From Escherichia coli (GTDB lineage: Bacteria; Pseudomonadota; Gammaproteobacteria; Enterobacterales; Enterobacteriaceae), in NCBI RefSeq assembly GCF_048403405.1, contig NZ_CP183131.1: DNA of 64,000 bases; one strand, given 5' to 3'. Below, in pieces: positions 54,001-63,000 of the stretch. Position 1 is the stretch's first letter. The number at the start of each line of letters is the position of its first letter. Position numbers: made by a program.

Positions 54001-57000
54001 CAGTGGGCATGGGGTAATAAAGACGAATCTTTCCCCAATTCTTGTTGTCGGTAAAAGCGACCTTTGTTTGAGCAACACAAAGCTGCAAAAACATGAAAAG
54101 GAAGTCTTCTACCGAGTGCTTACCATCTGCACCAAATACTCCATCGACAATTGCCGGGGTCACTGCCACATTGGTCAGGAAACCAGCTTGTTTACCGATG
54201 GAAGATTGGTCCACCAGCAGACCATCATTGATGGCTTGTTGACGGATTTGGGCGAGGTCCAATTTAGCTACTTGGTTCATAAGGTGTACTCCAAAGTTAA
54301 TGGGTACACCTACCCCGTGCGGGGAAGTGTACCCGCATGGGTTATTGAAAGGTCACGGCCAAAGCCGAGCTTTAAGGTTCCGAGTTTTACGCTGGCTGAA
54401 TGCGCCAAAGAACGGTCGGAGGAAACGAGTCAGCGACACGCTTCACATTCGCGTAAAGAGTGTCCTTAAAGACACGCTCTAAGCGACGACCACCTTGACG
54501 ATAAACCAACTTAAAGTCTTGGAATTTGTTCATGGATACCTCCAGAAATAACGGGAGGTATCTCCAGCAGGAGATAGACTCCCGCAGGGATTAATAAATT
54601 AACGTTAATTTGCTGTTTGTTTTTGGCGACCAGCTATCGCACGCTTTCGCCCTCAGGGAGGACAAAATCTGCTTACTGATGGCTTAACCATGAGTAAGAA
54701 GACTTGGGAAGTAAAGCAGGGGTTTCCCCCTGCCTTGTTATGCCGCTTTGAGGTGGCGAGAGAAAAAGTCCCTGGTTTGCTGGATAGCGCCCCGGAGAAG
54801 TTCTCGTCTGTAGCCAGCGTAGCTCTTGTCATCACTGGCAACGGTCAAGCCGTGCAGACTCTCTTCACCCAGGACAATCTCGTTTTCACGAGAGAGTACC
54901 TCAACACGTAGGCCAAGCACTCGCTCTTTCCCTTCCAGGATAGAACAAATTGTTTGGTCTCTTACTTCGTCATCCCAGTGGCCCATATCGAAATCCCGCT
55001 CAGGGAGTTCAGTAACACGCACCAGGTAGTTTTCAGTGGCCCGTTCCCAAACCACTTCATCTTCGCATGGAGAGGCCTCGATCAGCGAGTACCCGTCCGC
55101 TTCGAGCTTCTTGGAAAGACTTTTTACATCATCCGCCAGCTCCAGCACAAAGCGTTCCCAGAGGTCTTGCCAGCGCTCGACCATATCCTGGTTAATCCCT
55201 TCAATGCCGGTGCCAATCATGGAATCATCATCAGGGAAGATCCCTGTGAAGTCCACGTTGTCGTCGATGTTCATGCAGTTCCAATGGCTGTAGTGATGCC
55301 CGTGACTATTCCGAGTAATGGACAGGTCACAGGAACCATATTCGCGGAGGACAGAAAGCATATTCTCAATGTCTTTCTGTGCCATCAGGTTCTTCACGCG
55401 GCTGACAGCATCCACTTGGCCGGGCTCAGTGCTGAATAGGCGATTCATGAGAGCTTTGACGTCATCAACGCTCAAATCCCCGTAGAAGGCTACGCCATCC
55501 CCCTGGCAGTATCCGAGACTGTACTCAATCGTCAGATCATCCGGGTATCCACACTTAACCAGTTCGTTTTGAAAATGCTGTTTAATCATTGGTATCTCCT
55601 TAATTTCAGAGGGAGACACCATCCCCTCAGGGACCGATGTCCCCCGTGGGGTTAATGTTTGGGTTAAGAAGCCTTGCGGTTTAATTCAGTATCAAATCGA
55701 GGACCTTTGAGAACCGCAGTTTTCATAACCTCGAAGTTTCTTGGGTAACGCAGCTTTGAAACTGCGCCAGCTCGGATGTCGGCAGCCTCACTTGGAGAGA
55801 CTAGCCTTAACCCTTCGCTGGTTTCAGCGTAGAACCAACCGGCATAACGCTCATAGGCATTCTGCTGGTACTGTTCAGTCGCCATATTCTTCCGGATCGC
55901 CTCTGTTAAGGCCTCAACAACACCGTCATCTTTCGTGATGATGTTGAAAACATGAGAGACGGTCAGGAAGTTCCCAAAGAAGCAGGCTGCCCCAAGCCAA
56001 GGCTGGAACATTTCGCCATTTCGCCCCGTCCTCACCATTGGTTCAAACGGGTATGGGCGATAACAGTGATACTGCTCAAACATCGGGTCAAGAACGTTGT
56101 CACCCAGGACATCCAGTAAAGTCTGAATGCTGTCCGGGTCTTGGCCTGCCCACTTACTCCCATTGCTGAGAATCAGTGTTTTACCGTCAGTACGCTCCAG
56201 AGCTTGTTCAAAGTTAGACATAGTGCATTCCTTTTGGTTAGGACGCACCACACCCTCTCGGGATGATGCGCCCGAGTGGGTTAGTTGAGAAGGCTTAGCC
56301 GTCAAGTCCGTAAATTACGGCGGAGCCGGGCTCCATCTCGACAACTTGTGCGCTTCCTTCTTCTATCAGCTCCTGCATGTAACCAGACTCAGCATCCGGA
56401 TTACGTTCGCAGTGTTCGTCCCAGCGTTTCAAAAGCCCTTCTGTGGCTTGTCCGTGGGTCTCACCAAGGCCGATAAACTCATAGTGTCCTGTGTTTACGA
56501 TGATCACCACCATAGCTAGTGCTCTCCTACAGGTCACTTGGTACATACAGGTCATCTTTGATGGCAGAAAAATCGACAGGAGACTGGTCCCCATAGGTTC
56601 GATTCACGCCACCAGCATCATCGACACTGACAAAAACCGTGCGGAGTAAACCGCTGGGCTTTGCAGGGTAAACGATGCTGACATGCTGACCTTTGTACTG
56701 TTCTGACAAAGTGCTTTGAAGCTCATCAACCGAACGGAATTTCCGGTCGCGGCCAAAGTCCTTAATCTTGATGTCGCCAGGGATTGGATTAGTCATCGTT
56801 ACCCCCTGCCAGCAGTTTATCTACTGAATGGCCGAGTCCGTTACCAAACCATTTGTCCAGAGCGTCGATTTCCGGGAAGTCCGATTTCACCTGAGCAACA
56901 ACACGTTCCATTTTGCTGAGAGCATCCTGGAACTCAAGGCCATTACCTGCGGCCACCTCAAGTTTGCACTTGATGTAAGCGGAGTAGGTATCACAGGCCT

Positions 57001-60000: not shown

Positions 60001-63000
60001 AGTGTGCAAGATGAAGTGGTGCTGGCTGATGGTCGCCCCACTCCTTACAGCCCGGATCAGGGCCATCAGGAACAGGTGCAAGACCGTTTCAGAATCTTTA
60101 CCACTGGAATAGCCGATCATCATGGTCCACCCATCAATTAAGGCCGTGTGAATGGACTCAACCGATGACGTGATCAACGATGACAGACTGGTTCCTCTAC
60201 TGGCATCAACGAAGTTCAAATCCTCGTTATCAGTCAGTTCTGACCAAACAGAATCCCACTTATCCCCACGCAAAAGCACTGGGATGGGTTGTTCTGATAG
60301 ATCAAAGTTTAATGTTTGTTGCATAGGGCCTCCTGGATTAGCAGGGTGCCCATCCCTTCCGGGAAAGCACCCCGGTAGGGTTAAAATTGAATCCTGGCTA
60401 TCAGACCTGAATGAATCGCCACGGGTTTAACAGACACCTCAGAGTCATTTAAGATGGCTTAAAGAGAGGTGCCCATGAGCGGTAAGCGTTATCCCGAAGA
60501 GTTTAAAATTGAAGCAGTCAAACAGGTTGTTGATCGCGGTTATTCTGTTGCCAGCGTTGCAACACGTCTCGATATCACCACCCACAGCCTTTACGCCTGG
60601 ATAAAGAAGTACGGTCCGGATTCTTCCACTAATAAAGAACAGTCAGATGCTCAGGCCGAGATCCGCCGTCTCCAGAAAGAGCTGAAGCGGGTTACCGACG
60701 AACGGGACATATTAAAAAAAGCCGCGGCGTACTTCGCAAAGCTGTCCGACTGAGGTACGCCTTTATCCGTGACAACACCTGTTGCTGGCCTGTTCGCCTG
60801 CTCTGTCGGGTGCTGGATGTTCATCCCAGTGGTTTTTACGCCTGGCTTCAGCAGCCGCATTCACAACGCCATCAGGCAGACCTAAGACTGACAGGACAGA
60901 TTAAACAGTTCTGGCTGGAATCGGGATGCATCTATGGTTATCGCAAAATCCATCTGGATCTGCGGGACAGCGGGCAACAGTGCGGAGTGAACAGAGTCTG
61001 GCGACTGATGAAACGTGTCGGGATAAAGGCTCAGGTTGGATACCGGAGCCCGCGAGCACGTAAAGGCGAAGCCAGTATCGTGTCGCCCAACAGGCTCCAG
61101 CGACAGTTCAATCCGGATGCTCCGGATGAGCGTTGGGTAACGGACATAACCTACATCAGGACCCACGAAGGCTGGCTGTATCTTGCCGTGGTTGTTGATC
61201 TGTTCTCACGCAAAATTATCGGCTGGTCCATGCAATCCCGGATGACAAAGGACATTGTCCTGAACGCACTGCTGATGGCTGTATGGCGGCGTAATCCCCA
61301 AAAACAGGTGCTGGTTCATTCGGATCAGGGCAGTCAATACACAAGCCATGAGTGGCAGTCGTTCCTGAAATCACACGGCCTGGAGGGCAGCATGAGCCGT
61401 CGCGGTAACTGCCATGATAATGCGGTTGCAGAAAGCTTTTTCCAGTTGTTGAAACGCGAACGGATAAAGAAAAAGCTCTACGGAACGCGGGAAGAAGCCC
61501 GCAGCGATATTTTTGATTACATCGAAATGTTTTATAACAGTAAGCGTCGGCATGGTTCTAGCGATCAGATGTCACCGACAGAATATGAAAACCAGTATTA
61601 TCAACGGCTCGGAAGTGTCTAGATTATCCGTGGCGATTCAGAACTAGCTGCTACTCGACATCTGGTTGTCTTCGTATTGCTGCTTGGCCTGTTTCACCAG
61701 ATCAATGTCACCGTCTTGCAGCTTTTGAATATCAAGCTGTAGACGAGCCTTGTGTTTCAACAGTTCAGCGACCGCATTATCAATGTGATCAATGAGCGAT
61801 TGGTTTTTTTGGATGGTGTAACTGTTGAGTTCATCGAGCAGGGGCCATGCAACACTCGAATGAGTGTTGAGCAATGGGTACTCTGCTTCGATCTCACAAA
61901 CCACACCGTTTGCTCCTTCTCTGTAATGAGGGAACCCGACACGCAGACCGATACGACGATCCAGCGCTGCATTTACAGTACATTCCAAAGAAGTTCGGTT
62001 TGAAAAAACATCGTTGACGTTTTTAGACATGCTATATCTCCGTTCAGTTTATGACGGAGCCCCCCTAACAGGAGGTGCTCCCGTCAGGGTTGATAATTTG
62101 CTGTTTGTTTTTGGCAGCCAGCTACCGCACTTGAGCGCCTAAGGCACTTTCCGAAGCACCCTGGGAAACCGAGATGCTTGGGAAAGCGCGGGGTTTCCCC
62201 CTGCGCTGATTACCCTTTTTAAGGGGCCGGTACGCCGATTTCTCGGCGCACTCAGGTTGAAGCTACACAGTCAAGAACCAACGTTTCATAGGGACGGTGA
62301 TGTCTATCATCCCGTTTCCACATGGATTCTGGCCCCAGAATCTGTAGGTCGTCTCATAGAAGTCAAACTCAGACAAGGACTGAATCTGCGCTTCTGAGAT
62401 CGGCTCAAATGGTCCACCGCAACCGATGTGCATATTGAGCCCATAATCTCGAAGCTCTAGCTCTCCGAGATTTAGCGTCTTCCCGCCCACACAAGCAACC
62501 AAGTTCTGGTTTCTGACGTCGCCTTCTTTGAACAGCAAAGCTGACTCATCGTAGCTCCCATATTGGTTGGTAAACTTCACAATATGCCCGTGCTTAGGTG
62601 AGGTTTGTTCCGACAACTCTTTCAGTAATCGCTTTACGCTTTGAAATCTCGCGTACAGAGCTGGCGTAAACTGCCCAGAGTAGTTCAAGTTTGGGCAGAT
62701 CATTTCAAGCATCTCATCAGGTACAGATTCAAGCCCCATTTGCGCGGCCAATGGCTTCGCCTTTTTCAGACCTTCCTCAAGCACTCTCTGATTTACAAGT
62801 TGTTCTAATGTGTTCATTTGACTCTCCACTTTCGAGAGAGCAATGCAAGCCGTCTCCGGACTTACATTGCCCGTTAACGGCTTTATTGGTTTATCCCAAG
62901 AGGTACGGAGCTACGCCAGTCAGGAAGCCCATGACTCCCAACACAGCGCCAACCACGCCCAATTTGATTGACAGTTGGACACTTTGATCCGGATGGTTCC

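What the first reader, a model, noticed from the sequence alone, without database searches (positions are those of the whole stretch)
54738..60324. Array of unknown genes with an 817-aa PP-loop protein and a YfbR-like nucleotidase: candidate nucleotide/DNA-modification or anti-defence module
A co-directional cluster encodes an 817-aa protein with an N-terminal PAPS-reductase-like PP-loop (SSGKDS) and Cys cluster, a YfbR-like HD-domain 5'-deoxynucleotidase, several small proteins with no recognisable family, and nearby a primase and a C5-methyltransferase. PP-loop enzymes outside sulfate assimilation act in DNA phosphorothioation or base modification, and HD nucleotidases alter dNMP pools, so together they suggest a DNA-modification or pool-manipulation function. 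None of this is assignable to a named system from sequence alone.
Basis: inference. Interest (0 to 1): 0.7.

Follow-up and report, generated by a model that had tools for sequence, protein, structure and literature searches.

The report
IncC plasmid conjugation-induced DndC-like gene cluster
This is a well-conserved but functionally unstudied stretch of the backbone of IncC multidrug-resistance plasmids: a lone, intact relative of the DNA-sulfur-modification enzyme DndC, followed by a separate operon with a dNMP phosphatase, both switched on by the plasmid's master activator of conjugation.

Summary
Window 54738-60324 (minus strand) is backbone of an IncC (IncA/C2) conjugative plasmid, matching pVCR94 genes vcrx113-vcrx119, with primase (vcrx122) and C5-methyltransferase dcm1 (vcrx109) nearby.

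The 817-aa protein is a divergent DndC-type enzyme. It keeps the PP-loop motif and all five cysteines shared with true DndC, and adds about 350 family-specific residues. The 201-aa protein is a YfbR-type 5'-deoxynucleotidase.

The "one module" reading is not supported:
- The 817-aa gene ends in a strong terminator.
- That terminator is followed by the published, experimentally mapped AcaCD promoter of a separate six-gene operon, which contains the nucleotidase.
- Outside IncA/C the two genes do not travel together: the DndC-like family is in 2644 plasmid records (78% conjugative), the nucleotidase in 834.
- No DndD/DndE, Ssp or BREX partner, and no P-loop ATPase, lies nearby.

Published data show that both units depend on AcaCD, and that a 23.7-kb deletion removing them leaves the plasmid self-transmissible.

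Best guess (about 0.3): a host-IscS-fed sulfur modification of plasmid nucleic acid that helps establishment or defence evasion. The function is untested. In this window an IS3-family element sits 85 bp upstream of the 817-aa gene.

The parts
57871..60324 (-). 817-aa DndC-like PP-loop/[4Fe-4S] sulfurtransferase paralogue (pVCR94 vcrx113). DndC-like catalytic region is residues ~53-464 (58933-60168), with SSGKDS at 60091-60108 and the Cys cluster C285-C307 at 59404-59472. A family-specific conserved domain covers residues 465-620 (58465-58932). A variable helical tail covers residues 621-817 (57874-58464) and ends in ...SLAA.
57840..57872 (-). Intrinsic terminator directly after the stop codon of the 817-aa gene: stem AGCCCTCC, loop TTCG, stem GGAGGGCT, then a T-run.
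   Evidence: sequence; -22.7 kcal/mol, z -3.5; sub-threshold Rfam ctRNA hit is this hairpin
57815..57843 (-). AcaCD-binding box of promoter P_vcrx114, 29/29 identical to the ChIP-exo/MAST box of pVCR94 (86650-86678). The corresponding transcription start maps to about 57778-57780.
   Evidence: PMC4207636 Table S3; PMC8373056
57466..57669 (-). 67-aa protein (vcrx114), first gene of the AcaCD-driven vcrx114-119 operon; no family.
56789..57394 (-). 201-aa YfbR-type HD-domain 5'-deoxynucleotidase (vcrx115).
56527..56796 (-). 89-aa protein (vcrx116); its start overlaps the nucleotidase stop by 8 nt; no family.
56295..56513 (-). 72-aa protein (vcrx117; the mechanical ORF list extends it to 99 aa); no family.
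55664..56221 (-). 185-aa protein (vcrx118). RefSeq calls it 'pyruvate dehydrogenase', which no profile search supports.
54738..55589 (-). 283-aa protein (vcrx119, sometimes labelled NgrC), last gene of the operon. Its N-terminal half matches phrog_5162 (unknown function). Homologues are in 1297 plasmid records.
61644..62030 (-). 128-aa protein (vcrx112), the upstream partner of the 817-aa gene in the operon predicted from RNA-seq. In this window the IS separates the two.
60412..61640 (+). IS3-family insertion sequence (orfA 60469-60753, orfB 60810-61622; 38-nt imperfect terminal inverted repeats; 3-bp target duplication GAA at 60409-60411 and 61641-61643). It lies 3 bp after the vcrx112 stop and 85 bp upstream of the 817-aa ATG.
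54610..54635 (-). Core of an rptI-type repeated intergenic leader element (equivalent to rptIf of pVCR94), downstream of vcrx119. Further copies lie at 57732-57750 (diverged, in the vcrx114 leader) and 62098-62123 (upstream of vcrx112).
   Evidence: PMC7498323
51989..53812 (-). Toprim DNA primase (vcrx122; RefSeq start gives 575 aa, 51989-53716). Context only.
63383..64000 (-). C-terminal part of the C5 cytosine methyltransferase dcm1 (vcrx109), cut by the window end. Context only.
   Evidence: PMC7498323

Best explanation
**What the interval is (shown).** It is part of the conserved IncC plasmid backbone and holds two independent transcription units, both belonging to the regulon of AcaCD, the master activator of conjugation.
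- Unit 1 (vcrx112-113) encodes the 817-aa protein.
- Unit 2 (vcrx114-119) has its own AcaCD promoter and encodes the YfbR-type dNMP phosphatase plus five orphan proteins.
- They lie in the ~33-kb co-directional array that also holds the proven anti-restriction and CRISPR-break-repair operon, ssb, orphan C5-methyltransferases and a primase.
- The segment is dispensable for conjugation itself.

**The 817-aa protein (shown).** It is a catalytically intact but divergent DndC paralogue with a private C-terminal domain. It belongs to a large family restricted to plasmids and integrative elements, and that family has no conserved partner gene.

**Most likely mechanism (inferred).** Like DndC, it would bind ATP at the PP-loop and take sulfur from the host cysteine desulfurase IscS onto its Cys dyad and [4Fe-4S] centre. 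It would then adenylate and thiolate a nucleic-acid substrate, most plausibly the plasmid's own DNA around the time of transfer. Its own C-terminal extension would replace DndD/DndE for substrate engagement. The mark would protect the incoming plasmid from recipient nucleases, in the way the orphan methyltransferases in the same array do.

**The nucleotidase (inferred).** It acts separately, hydrolysing dNMPs to nucleosides during the burst of conjugative DNA processing.
For: **Shown.**
- IncC backbone identity.
- Terminator plus AcaCD box identical to the mapped one (PMC4207636 Table S3, read).
- RNA-seq from the same paper: vcrx113 298 (wild type) / 6 (acaCD deletion) / 979 (induced); vcrx115 1178 / 50 / 6412; predicted operons vcrx112-113 and vcrx114-119.
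- P_vcrx114 was used as an AcaCD reporter.
- The PP-loop and five Cys are invariant with true DndC. The Cys dyad that distinguishes DndC from BrxP is retained (for the criterion).
- Purifying selection, dN/dS 0.11.
- Family found in 2644 plasmid records, 2070 of them conjugative. Only 5 phage-collection records matched: one is the IncC gene itself at 99.9% identity, four are weak N-terminal-only hits.
- Other contexts are co-directional arrays of small orphan genes. One has ArdA, an N6-methyltransferase and a DGQHR/DndB-like gene directly upstream.
- hde, ssb, bet and exo lie in the same array (PMC7498323).

**Established knowledge.** IscS can replace DndA (PMC11185695, PMC10853773).

**Literature lead.** A 2026 preprint notes PAPS reductases in Aca-regulated anti-defence loci. 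It cites work in which a phage PAPS reductase promoted evasion of Dnd.
Against: - All three known phosphorothioation systems need a P-loop NTPase partner (DndD, SspC or BrxC; PMC11185695). None of the 16 neighbouring proteins has a Walker A motif or a PADLOC hit.
- The protein scores far below the DndC equivalog cut-off (119.8 vs 290.4 bits).
- No modification of IncC DNA by this gene has been reported in anything I could find.
- The transposon screen of Roy et al. reported only five hde genes of the vcrx087-094 operon (vcrx089-093) as needed to enter V. cholerae carrying type I restriction and CRISPR-Cas.
- A 23.7-kb deletion removing the cluster leaves the plasmid transmissible.
- A sublineage of 68 plasmid records carries the IS between the gene and its upstream transcription, and other plasmids have IS hits in or next to it. 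Loss or down-regulation is therefore tolerated.
- The C-terminal domain has no informative structural match, so DNA binding is not shown.
Confidence: 0.3

Rival explanations
1. One functional module: the PP-loop enzyme and the HD nucleotidase work together. For example, the nucleotidase would clear or supply nucleotides for a DNA modification made by the PP-loop enzyme.
For: The two genes are adjacent and co-directional in all IncA/C plasmids, and both are AcaCD-dependent. A diverged copy of the same rptI leader element precedes both units.
Against: - A terminator and a separate mapped promoter lie between them.
- No homologue of the nucleotidase or of any other cluster protein lies within 8-10 kb of the DndC-like gene in the 9 loci searched by tblastn. 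No YfbR-type nucleotidase is annotated in 5 further annotated plasmid contexts.
- The one adjacent HD protein elsewhere (Variovorax) is SpoT-like and unrelated.
- Distributions differ: 834 vs 2644 plasmid records.
Confidence: 0.1
2. The DndC-like protein is an anti-defence factor aimed at sulfur-based immunity (Dnd, Ssp, BREX type 4). It would act either as a decoy that titrates host IscS or DndD/E-type partners, or by plugging into the recipient's own DndD/E machinery so that the incoming plasmid is marked as self more quickly.
For: - It is a solo enzyme with the DndC-specific residues but no partners of its own.
- It is expressed with the transfer genes.
- A DGQHR/DndB-like regulator lies next to the 669-aa subfamily.
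- Many DndD-DndE cores lack DndC (PMC10853773).
- A literature statement says a phage PAPS reductase promotes Dnd evasion.
Against: - Dnd, Ssp and BREX type 4 systems occur in only a few per cent of genomes (PMC11185695), which is a narrow target for a gene kept on 3.6% of all plasmid records.
- The strictly conserved catalytic residues argue against a pure decoy.
- Nothing has been tested.
Confidence: 0.12
3. The enzyme thiolates or adenylates something other than DNA, such as a tRNA or other RNA (as the [4Fe-4S] PP-loop enzymes TtuA and TtcA do) or a small molecule.
For: The fold search returns TtuA, LarE, CysH and FAD synthase PP-loop domains, with no solved DndC for comparison. No DNA-binding domain is recognisable. 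PRTRC/ThiF-E2-like genes lie upstream in the Vibrio and Alteromonas contexts.
Against: By sequence it is nearer to DndC than to any other PP-loop family, and it keeps the DndC Cys dyad. It is exclusive to mobile elements and sits among DNA-transaction genes.
Confidence: 0.15
4. Dispensable cargo with no current role: relic genes carried along by a successful backbone.
For: The segment is deletable without loss of transfer. There are several independent IS insertions, and a 68-record lineage carries the IS upstream.
Against: dN/dS is 0.11 over 78 substitutions. All catalytic residues are conserved down to 27% identity. The family is retained on thousands of plasmids of different incompatibility groups. 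Expression is tightly controlled by AcaCD.
Confidence: 0.08

Closest known systems
DndC (sulfurtransferase of the DndABCDE DNA phosphorothioation system; TIGR03183 / PRK06850)
   Same: PP-loop SGKDS motif, the RxC cysteine, and the C...CGxRFGCxxC cluster including the DndC-specific Cys dyad. Profile matches cover residues 53-464.
   Different: - Scores 120-141 bits where true DndC scores 365-423.
- About 350 extra C-terminal residues.
- No dndD, dndE or dndA beside it in the window, and none in the other 14 contexts: 9 searched by tblastn and Pfam listings, 5 read from RefSeq product names. Only the 669-aa subfamily has a DndB-like neighbour.
- Found only on plasmids and integrative elements.
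SspD and BrxP (PAPS-reductase-domain proteins of the SspABCD and BREX type 4 phosphorothioation systems)
   Same: Same PP-loop superfamily. BrxP shows that such an enzyme can carry its DNA-engaging partner as a fused domain (PMC11185695).
   Different: No PADLOC Ssp or Brx model matched and no DUF4007 was found. BrxP lacks the DndC Cys dyad that this protein keeps (PMC12839542). No SspB/SspC or BrxC/Z/L genes are nearby.
E. coli YfbR 5'-deoxynucleotidase (PDB 2PAQ) and phage T5-type dNMP phosphatases
   Same: The 201-aa protein passes the NCBIfam equivalog cut-off and conserves the metal and catalytic residues of YfbR. It has weak PHROG hits to phage deoxyribonucleoside-5'-monophosphate phosphatases.
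   Different: It is plasmid-borne, under a conjugation activator, and first in a run of orphan genes. Its substrate range is untested.
IncC host-defence-evasion (hde) operon vcrx087-094 and leading-region anti-defence islands of conjugative plasmids
   Same: Same strand and same AcaCD regulon. The same rptI leader repeats precede vcrx089, vcrx112, vcrx114 and vcrx120. The gene mix is typical of such islands: ssb, recombinase, orphan methyltransferases, primase and many small orphans (PMC7498323; PMC11541004).
   Different: No anti-defence phenotype has been shown for vcrx112-119. They did not score in the published transposon screen. I could not establish whether this segment enters the recipient first.

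Membership tests
DndC / Dnd phosphorothioation system | PP-loop ATP-pyrophosphatase motif SGGKDS | tested here: met
   SSGKDS at residues 73-78. G75, K76, D77 and S78 are invariant across 8 sequences including a bona fide DndC.
DndC / Dnd phosphorothioation system | Cysteines for the [4Fe-4S] cluster plus the DndC-specific Cys dyad | tested here: met
   C173, C285, C298, C304 and C307 are invariant in alignment A3. The criterion comes from PMC10853773 and PMC12839542.
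DndC / Dnd phosphorothioation system | Score above the curated equivalog cut-off of TIGR03183 | tested here: not met
   119.8 bits vs a cut-off of 290.4. A true DndC (P0100) scores 364.8.
DndC / Dnd phosphorothioation system | Linked dndD (ABC/SMC-like P-loop ATPase) and dndE | tested here: not met
   None of the 16 proteins from 49952 to 63367 has a Walker A motif. No PADLOC hits other than DndC itself. No Dnd, Ssp or Brx gene is named in the two inspected pVCR94 stretches, which cover about 70 of 120.6 kb.
DndC / Dnd phosphorothioation system | Phosphorothioate linkages in DNA that depend on the gene | not testable with these tools
   Needs LC-MS/MS or iodine-cleavage sequencing of plasmid DNA.
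SspABCD / BREX type 4 (SspD, BrxP) | Match to SspD/BrxP models, DUF4007 fusion, and neighbouring SspB/SspC or BrxC/PglZ/BrxL | tested here: not met
   PADLOC returned only DndC and one methyltransferase-fusion model. Pfam returned nothing. The neighbours are orphans.
YfbR-type 5'-deoxynucleotidase (NF003009) | Score above the curated cut-off, and H...HD...D metal/catalytic residues | tested here: met
   128.5 bits vs a cut-off of 122. Alignment to 2PAQ at 1.6e-26, with H35, H69, D70, E73, D78 and D135 matching YfbR H33, H68, D69, E72, D77 and D137 (YfbR residue numbers are from my own knowledge).
YfbR-type 5'-deoxynucleotidase (NF003009) | dNMP-specific phosphatase activity | not testable with these tools
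   Needs an enzyme assay.
AcaCD regulon of IncA/C plasmids | AcaCD box upstream of a mapped transcription start, and AcaCD-dependent expression | tested here: met
   The 29-nt box at 57815-57843 is identical to the ChIP-exo/MAST site of pVCR94 (PMC4207636 Table S3). Expression values come from the same paper. They were measured in pVCR94, not in this plasmid.
Leading-region anti-defence island (sensu PMC11541004) | Lies in the part of the plasmid that enters the recipient first, next to oriT | not tested
   I found no statement of transfer polarity for IncC. In pVCR94 the cluster lies about 30-36 kb or 84-90 kb from oriT, depending on direction.
Leading-region anti-defence island (sensu PMC11541004) | Co-directional array containing known anti-defence, ssb and methyltransferase genes | tested here: met
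   In pVCR94, 66-99 kb is almost entirely one strand and contains vcrx089-090, ssb, bet, exo, dcm3, dcm1, this cluster and pri (PMC7498323).
ParB/DndB-like + PAPS-reductase-like two-gene pairs (IbrB/IbrA-type; recalled from memory as a lead) | Adjacent ParB/Srx- or DGQHR-domain partner gene | tested here: not met
   No DGQHR homologue in the window or in the pVCR94 segments. A DGQHR/DndB-like gene is adjacent only in the 669-aa subfamily (L004/L005).

The most novel reading that the evidence does not exclude
The Vcrx113 family is a self-sufficient, conjugation-induced DNA sulfurtransferase. It would use only host IscS and its own C-terminal domain to install a phosphorothioate or other thio-mark on transferring plasmid DNA, without DndD/E-type partners. 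That would be a previously unrecognised anti-restriction strategy, present on roughly 3.6% of sequenced plasmids (IncC, IncHI1/HI2 and many others). Its ssrA-like ...LAA tail may make the activity transient.
Probability: 0.18. Interest if true: 0.8.

Novelty: new variant of a known kind. Interest (0 to 1): 0.45.

Why it matters
IncC plasmids are major vehicles of carbapenemase and other resistance genes, and most of their conserved backbone genes have no known function.

This work shows that one of those genes is an intact, strongly selected DndC paralogue under the conjugation master switch. It belongs to a family found on thousands of conjugative plasmids but essentially absent from phages. 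That gives a concrete hypothesis testable by mass spectrometry for how broad-host-range plasmids might mark or protect their DNA.

It also removes a misleading idea, that the PP-loop enzyme and the nucleotidase are one system, and it corrects a spurious database name ("pyruvate dehydrogenase").

If the enzyme modifies DNA on its own, it would change the current rule that phosphorothioation always needs a partner NTPase.

Tried and rejected
- **Pfam.** The scan of the 817-aa protein returned nothing, even at E<=10, although homologues carry weak precomputed PF01507 hits. I relied on NCBIfam, PADLOC and structure instead.
- **PDB by sequence.** Single sequence and profile searches found only FAD-synthase PAPS domains. 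No DndC or SspD structure was available for comparison.
- **Conserved partners.** I looked by tblastn of 16 IncC proteins against 9 homologous loci, and found nothing but the DndC-like gene itself.
- **DGQHR/DndB homologue in IncC.** None found.
- **HD gene next to a distant homologue in Variovorax.** It is SpoT-like, not YfbR-like.
- **Rad50/SbcC-like ATPase near the Cupriavidus homologue.** It did not hit any DndD model at E<=0.001, and I took it no further.
- **Literature.** Searches for any study of vcrx113 or vcrx115 found only regulon and reporter uses. The IncA/C TraDIS paper is not in the library. The oriT paper gives no transfer polarity. The primary reference for "phage PAPS reductase evades Dnd" could not be identified.
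- **Repeated leader as a long Frpo-like single-strand promoter hairpin.** It folds into several short hairpins instead, so that idea is not supported.
- **Promoter scan.** The sigma-70 consensus scan found no promoter in the 85 bp left between the IS and the 817-aa ATG.

Full report
**What the region is.** A megablast of window 54600-60400 against 72,556 plasmids found 838 records, 720 of them at >=99% identity. They come from Klebsiella, Escherichia, Salmonella, Vibrio, Shewanella and others, and 818 are predicted conjugative. Annotated examples are typed IncC, MOBH, MPF_F.

In the model plasmid pVCR94deltaX, the genes of the finding are vcrx113 (the 817-aa protein; 816 aa there) to vcrx119. 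They are preceded by vcrx112 and dcm1 (vcrx109) and followed by vcrx120, vcrx121 and the primase vcrx122.

All of these lie on one strand, in an array that runs from the host-defence-evasion operon to the rhs gene. That operon holds the AAA+ protein vcrx089, then vcrx090, ssb, bet and exo (PMC7498323).

**The observation.** It is correct.
- The 817-aa ORF, the PP-loop motif SSGKDS (residues 73-78) and a conserved cysteine cluster are present.
- The 201-aa protein passes the curated cut-off of the NCBIfam 5'-deoxynucleotidase model (128.5 vs 122 bits). It aligns to E. coli YfbR (2PAQ, 1.6e-26) with the HD-domain metal ligands in place.
- The remaining proteins have no Pfam, NCBIfam or PADLOC family. 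Only the 283-aa protein hits a PHROG, and that one is of unknown function.
- The RefSeq name "pyruvate dehydrogenase" for the 185-aa protein has no support.
- The genes are under purifying selection. Between this plasmid and pVCR94 the 817-aa gene has 55.5 synonymous and 22.5 non-synonymous differences, dN/dS 0.11.

**The 817-aa protein.** Profile searches place residues 53-464 in the DndC clade (PADLOC DndC 1.4e-41; PRK06850 6e-41; TIGR03183 1.3e-34). The scores are far below the equivalog cut-offs of 536 and 290 bits. A true DndC from the homologue list scores 423 and 365 bits on the same two models, so this is a distinct paralogous family.

In an alignment with that DndC, the following residues are invariant:
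- the PP-loop (G75, K76, D77, S78);
- C173, R208, E211 and R215;
- C285, C298, R301, G303, C304 and C307.

This set includes the Cys dyad that is described as specific to DndC and absent from BrxP (PMC10853773; PMC12839542).

An AlphaFold model built on 32 homologues is confident (pLDDT 86). Foldseek against the PDB returns only PP-loop domains: FAD synthase PAPS domain, CysH, CysD, TtuA and LarE.

Beyond the DndC-like part there are two further regions:
- a conserved region (residues 465-620) with invariant P477, G495, R594 and Q596;
- a variable tail of long helices (residues 621-817), which is missing from a 669-aa subfamily.

**Distribution and context of the family.** tblastn finds it in 2644 plasmid records (3.6% of the collection), of which 2070 are predicted conjugative. 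The hosts include Enterobacterales, Vibrio, Pseudomonas, Burkholderia and others. Distant members (23-31% identity) still align to about residue 605.

Only 5 records in the phage collection matched. One is the IncC gene itself at 99.9% identity, in a Salmonella Typhimurium record; the other four are weak hits to the N-terminal third.

I read fourteen other contexts:
- an IncHI2 plasmid;
- a 78-kb E. coli plasmid;
- Photorhabdus, Moellerella and Enterobacter elements;
- two Vibrio elements;
- Variovorax, Cupriavidus, Alteromonas and two Pseudomonas plasmids.

In most of them, especially the enterobacterial and Vibrio ones, the gene sits in a largely co-directional run of small orphan genes. The company is typical of mobile elements: Hok/Gef, ParB-like proteins, DnaB, RadC, and the PRTRC cassette.

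In the 78-kb plasmids it directly follows a DGQHR/DndB-like gene (TIGR03187, 152 bits). An N6-methyltransferase and ArdA lie a few genes away.

A tblastn of 16 IncC proteins against nine of these loci matched nothing except the DndC-like gene itself. No Walker A motif occurs in any of the 16 IncC neighbours. The family therefore travels alone.

**Transcription: two units, not one module.** On the coding strand, the stop codon of the 817-aa gene (57871-57873) is followed at once by a GC-rich hairpin and a T-run (-22.7 kcal/mol, z -3.5). Next comes a 29-nt sequence identical to the AcaCD box that Carraro et al. mapped by ChIP-exo at pVCR94 86650-86678 (p 3e-12).

For that box, Carraro et al. report (PMC4207636 Table S3, read; coordinates confirmed):
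- a 5'-RACE start at 86713-86715;
- a downstream operon vcrx114-vcrx119;
- expression rising from 1 to 2931 on induction.

The same promoter was later used as an AcaCD/SgaCD reporter (PMC8373056).

Their RNA-seq table gives these values (wild type / acaCD deletion / induced):

| Gene | Wild type | acaCD deletion | Induced |
|---|---|---|---|
| vcrx113 | 298 | 6 | 979 |
| vcrx115 | 1178 | 50 | 6412 |

The table also predicts vcrx112-113 as a separate operon. Both units therefore belong to the conjugation regulon, but they are transcribed separately.

The nucleotidase occurs in 834 plasmid records, essentially only IncA/C. This is the second argument against an obligate partnership.

**Dispensability.** A repeated intergenic element has copies in the window at 54610-54635, 57732-57750 and 62098-62123. 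In the pVCR94 segment it has five copies.

The first and last of those five are exactly 23,702 bp apart. That is the size of the rptIb-rptIf deletion that Bet/Exo produced most often when repairing Cas3 breaks, and those deleted plasmids were "transmissible" (PMC7498323 Table 1). The deletion removes vcrx089 through vcrx119. The whole cluster is therefore not needed for replication or transfer in the laboratory.

Natural plasmids agree with this:
- IS4, IS66 and IS3-family elements lie in the vcrx113/114 intergenic region or in vcrx114.
- ISKpn18 truncates the 5' end of vcrx113 in one plasmid.

**This window in particular.** A 1229-bp IS3-family element (60412-61640) with a GAA target duplication lies 3 bp after the vcrx112 stop and 85 bp upstream of the 817-aa start. 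It is oriented against the cluster. The identical junction is present in 68 plasmid records from several genera.

The published data show no AcaCD box in front of vcrx113 and predict a vcrx112-113 transcript. The insertion is therefore likely to cut the gene off from its normal transcription. This is inference: no sigma-70 consensus was found in the remaining 85 bp.

**Mechanism.** What is shown is the following:
- an intact DndC-type active site;
- restriction to mobile elements;
- control by the conjugation activator;
- location among establishment and defence-evasion genes;
- absence of the NTPase partner that all three known phosphorothioation systems require (PMC11185695).

From this I infer, at about 0.3 probability, an ATP- and IscS-dependent sulfur modification of the plasmid's own nucleic acid that helps it survive entry into new hosts. 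The private C-terminal domain would stand in for DndD/E.

The rivals are:
- interference with, or hijacking of, host sulfur-based immunity (0.12);
- a non-DNA substrate (0.15);
- a joint module with the nucleotidase (0.1);
- relic cargo (0.08).

The remaining probability covers functions I cannot name. The nucleotidase most likely hydrolyses dNMPs, as YfbR does. Why a conjugating plasmid needs that is unknown.

**Novelty.** The sequence, the operon structure and the regulation are already published, so the locus itself is known. No characterisation of the Vcrx113 family turned up in the searches I could run. Its architecture and solo status set it apart from DndC, SspD and BrxP. I therefore class it as a new variant of a known kind of enzyme. 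It is a good experimental lead rather than a surprise.

Noticed in passing
window 60412-61640 (target duplication 60409-60411 and 61641-61643): A 1229-bp IS3-family insertion sequence lies between the vcrx112 and vcrx113 homologues, against the direction of the cluster. The same junction occurs in 68 plasmid records of several genera, so it marks a successful IncC sublineage in which the DndC-like gene is probably cut off from upstream transcription.
   Followed up: partly
window 54610-54635, 57732-57750, 62098-62123 (minus strand); L012 4157, 8989, 21606, 24744, 27859: A repeated 100-155-bp leader element (core AGCTGG..CCAAAA..CAGCAA) ends right at the ribosome-binding site of vcrx089, the DUF3150 gene, vcrx112, vcrx114 and vcrx120. 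The spacing identifies it as the published rptI repeats used by Bet/Exo for repair. It is strongly structured (ssDNA z -6.1, RNA z -4.7), and three of the five copies contain the perfect palindrome AAATTAACGTTAATTT, which looks like an operator. I saw no regulatory role described for it.
   Followed up: partly
window 57874-57885 (last four codons of the 817-aa gene): The protein ends in ...SLAA. 37 of 101 homologue clusters end in AA, and many others in LA, VA or AV, even where the tails are otherwise unalignable. This resembles the ssrA tag end recognised by ClpX, which would suggest a short-lived protein. It could instead be a C-terminal secretion signal. Inference only.
   Followed up: partly
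L004 8470-9558 and L005 8470-9558: In 68-78-kb E. coli contigs (probably plasmids), the 669-aa form of the family directly follows a DGQHR/DndB-like gene (TIGR03187, 152 bits). It lies among an N6-methyltransferase, ArdA and toxin-antitoxin genes, which looks like a leading-region neighbourhood.
   Followed up: partly
L007-L010 (IncC plasmids pNE1127-2, pCf52, p3-20710, INF142 plasmid 2): Independent IS insertions are found in the same few hundred bases: IS4 in the vcrx113/114 intergenic region, IS66 and IS3-family elements in vcrx114, and ISKpn18 truncating the 5' end of vcrx113.
   Followed up: partly
window 55664-56221: RefSeq names this 185-aa protein 'pyruvate dehydrogenase' in hundreds of plasmids. 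No Pfam, NCBIfam, PHROG or PADLOC model supports that name.
   Followed up: yes
window 50791-51192: A 133-aa protein downstream of the primase gives a weak match to the macrodomain Ter protein MatP (NF003471, 3.9e-8, far below cut-off).
   Followed up: no
window 51989-53812: Besides its Toprim/primase part, the primase gives weak matches to the C-terminal region of MobP1 relaxases (residues 150-267, 2.4e-9) and to the C-terminal part of TraI (residues 342-578, 1.2e-6).
   Followed up: no
L006 6414-8013, L016 3180-4803, L019 3960-5490: In Vibrio and Alteromonas elements, the DndC-like gene lies 0.5-3 kb downstream of a PRTRC cassette (ParB-related protein, E2-like protein B, ThiF-family protein). 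Alteromonas and one Pseudomonas plasmid carry a second, shorter PAPS-reductase-like gene a few kb further on.
   Followed up: no
window 57838-57872: A sub-threshold Rfam hit to ctRNA_p42d (30.3 bits, gathering score 50) coincides with the terminator hairpin of the 817-aa gene and is most likely just that hairpin.
   Followed up: yes
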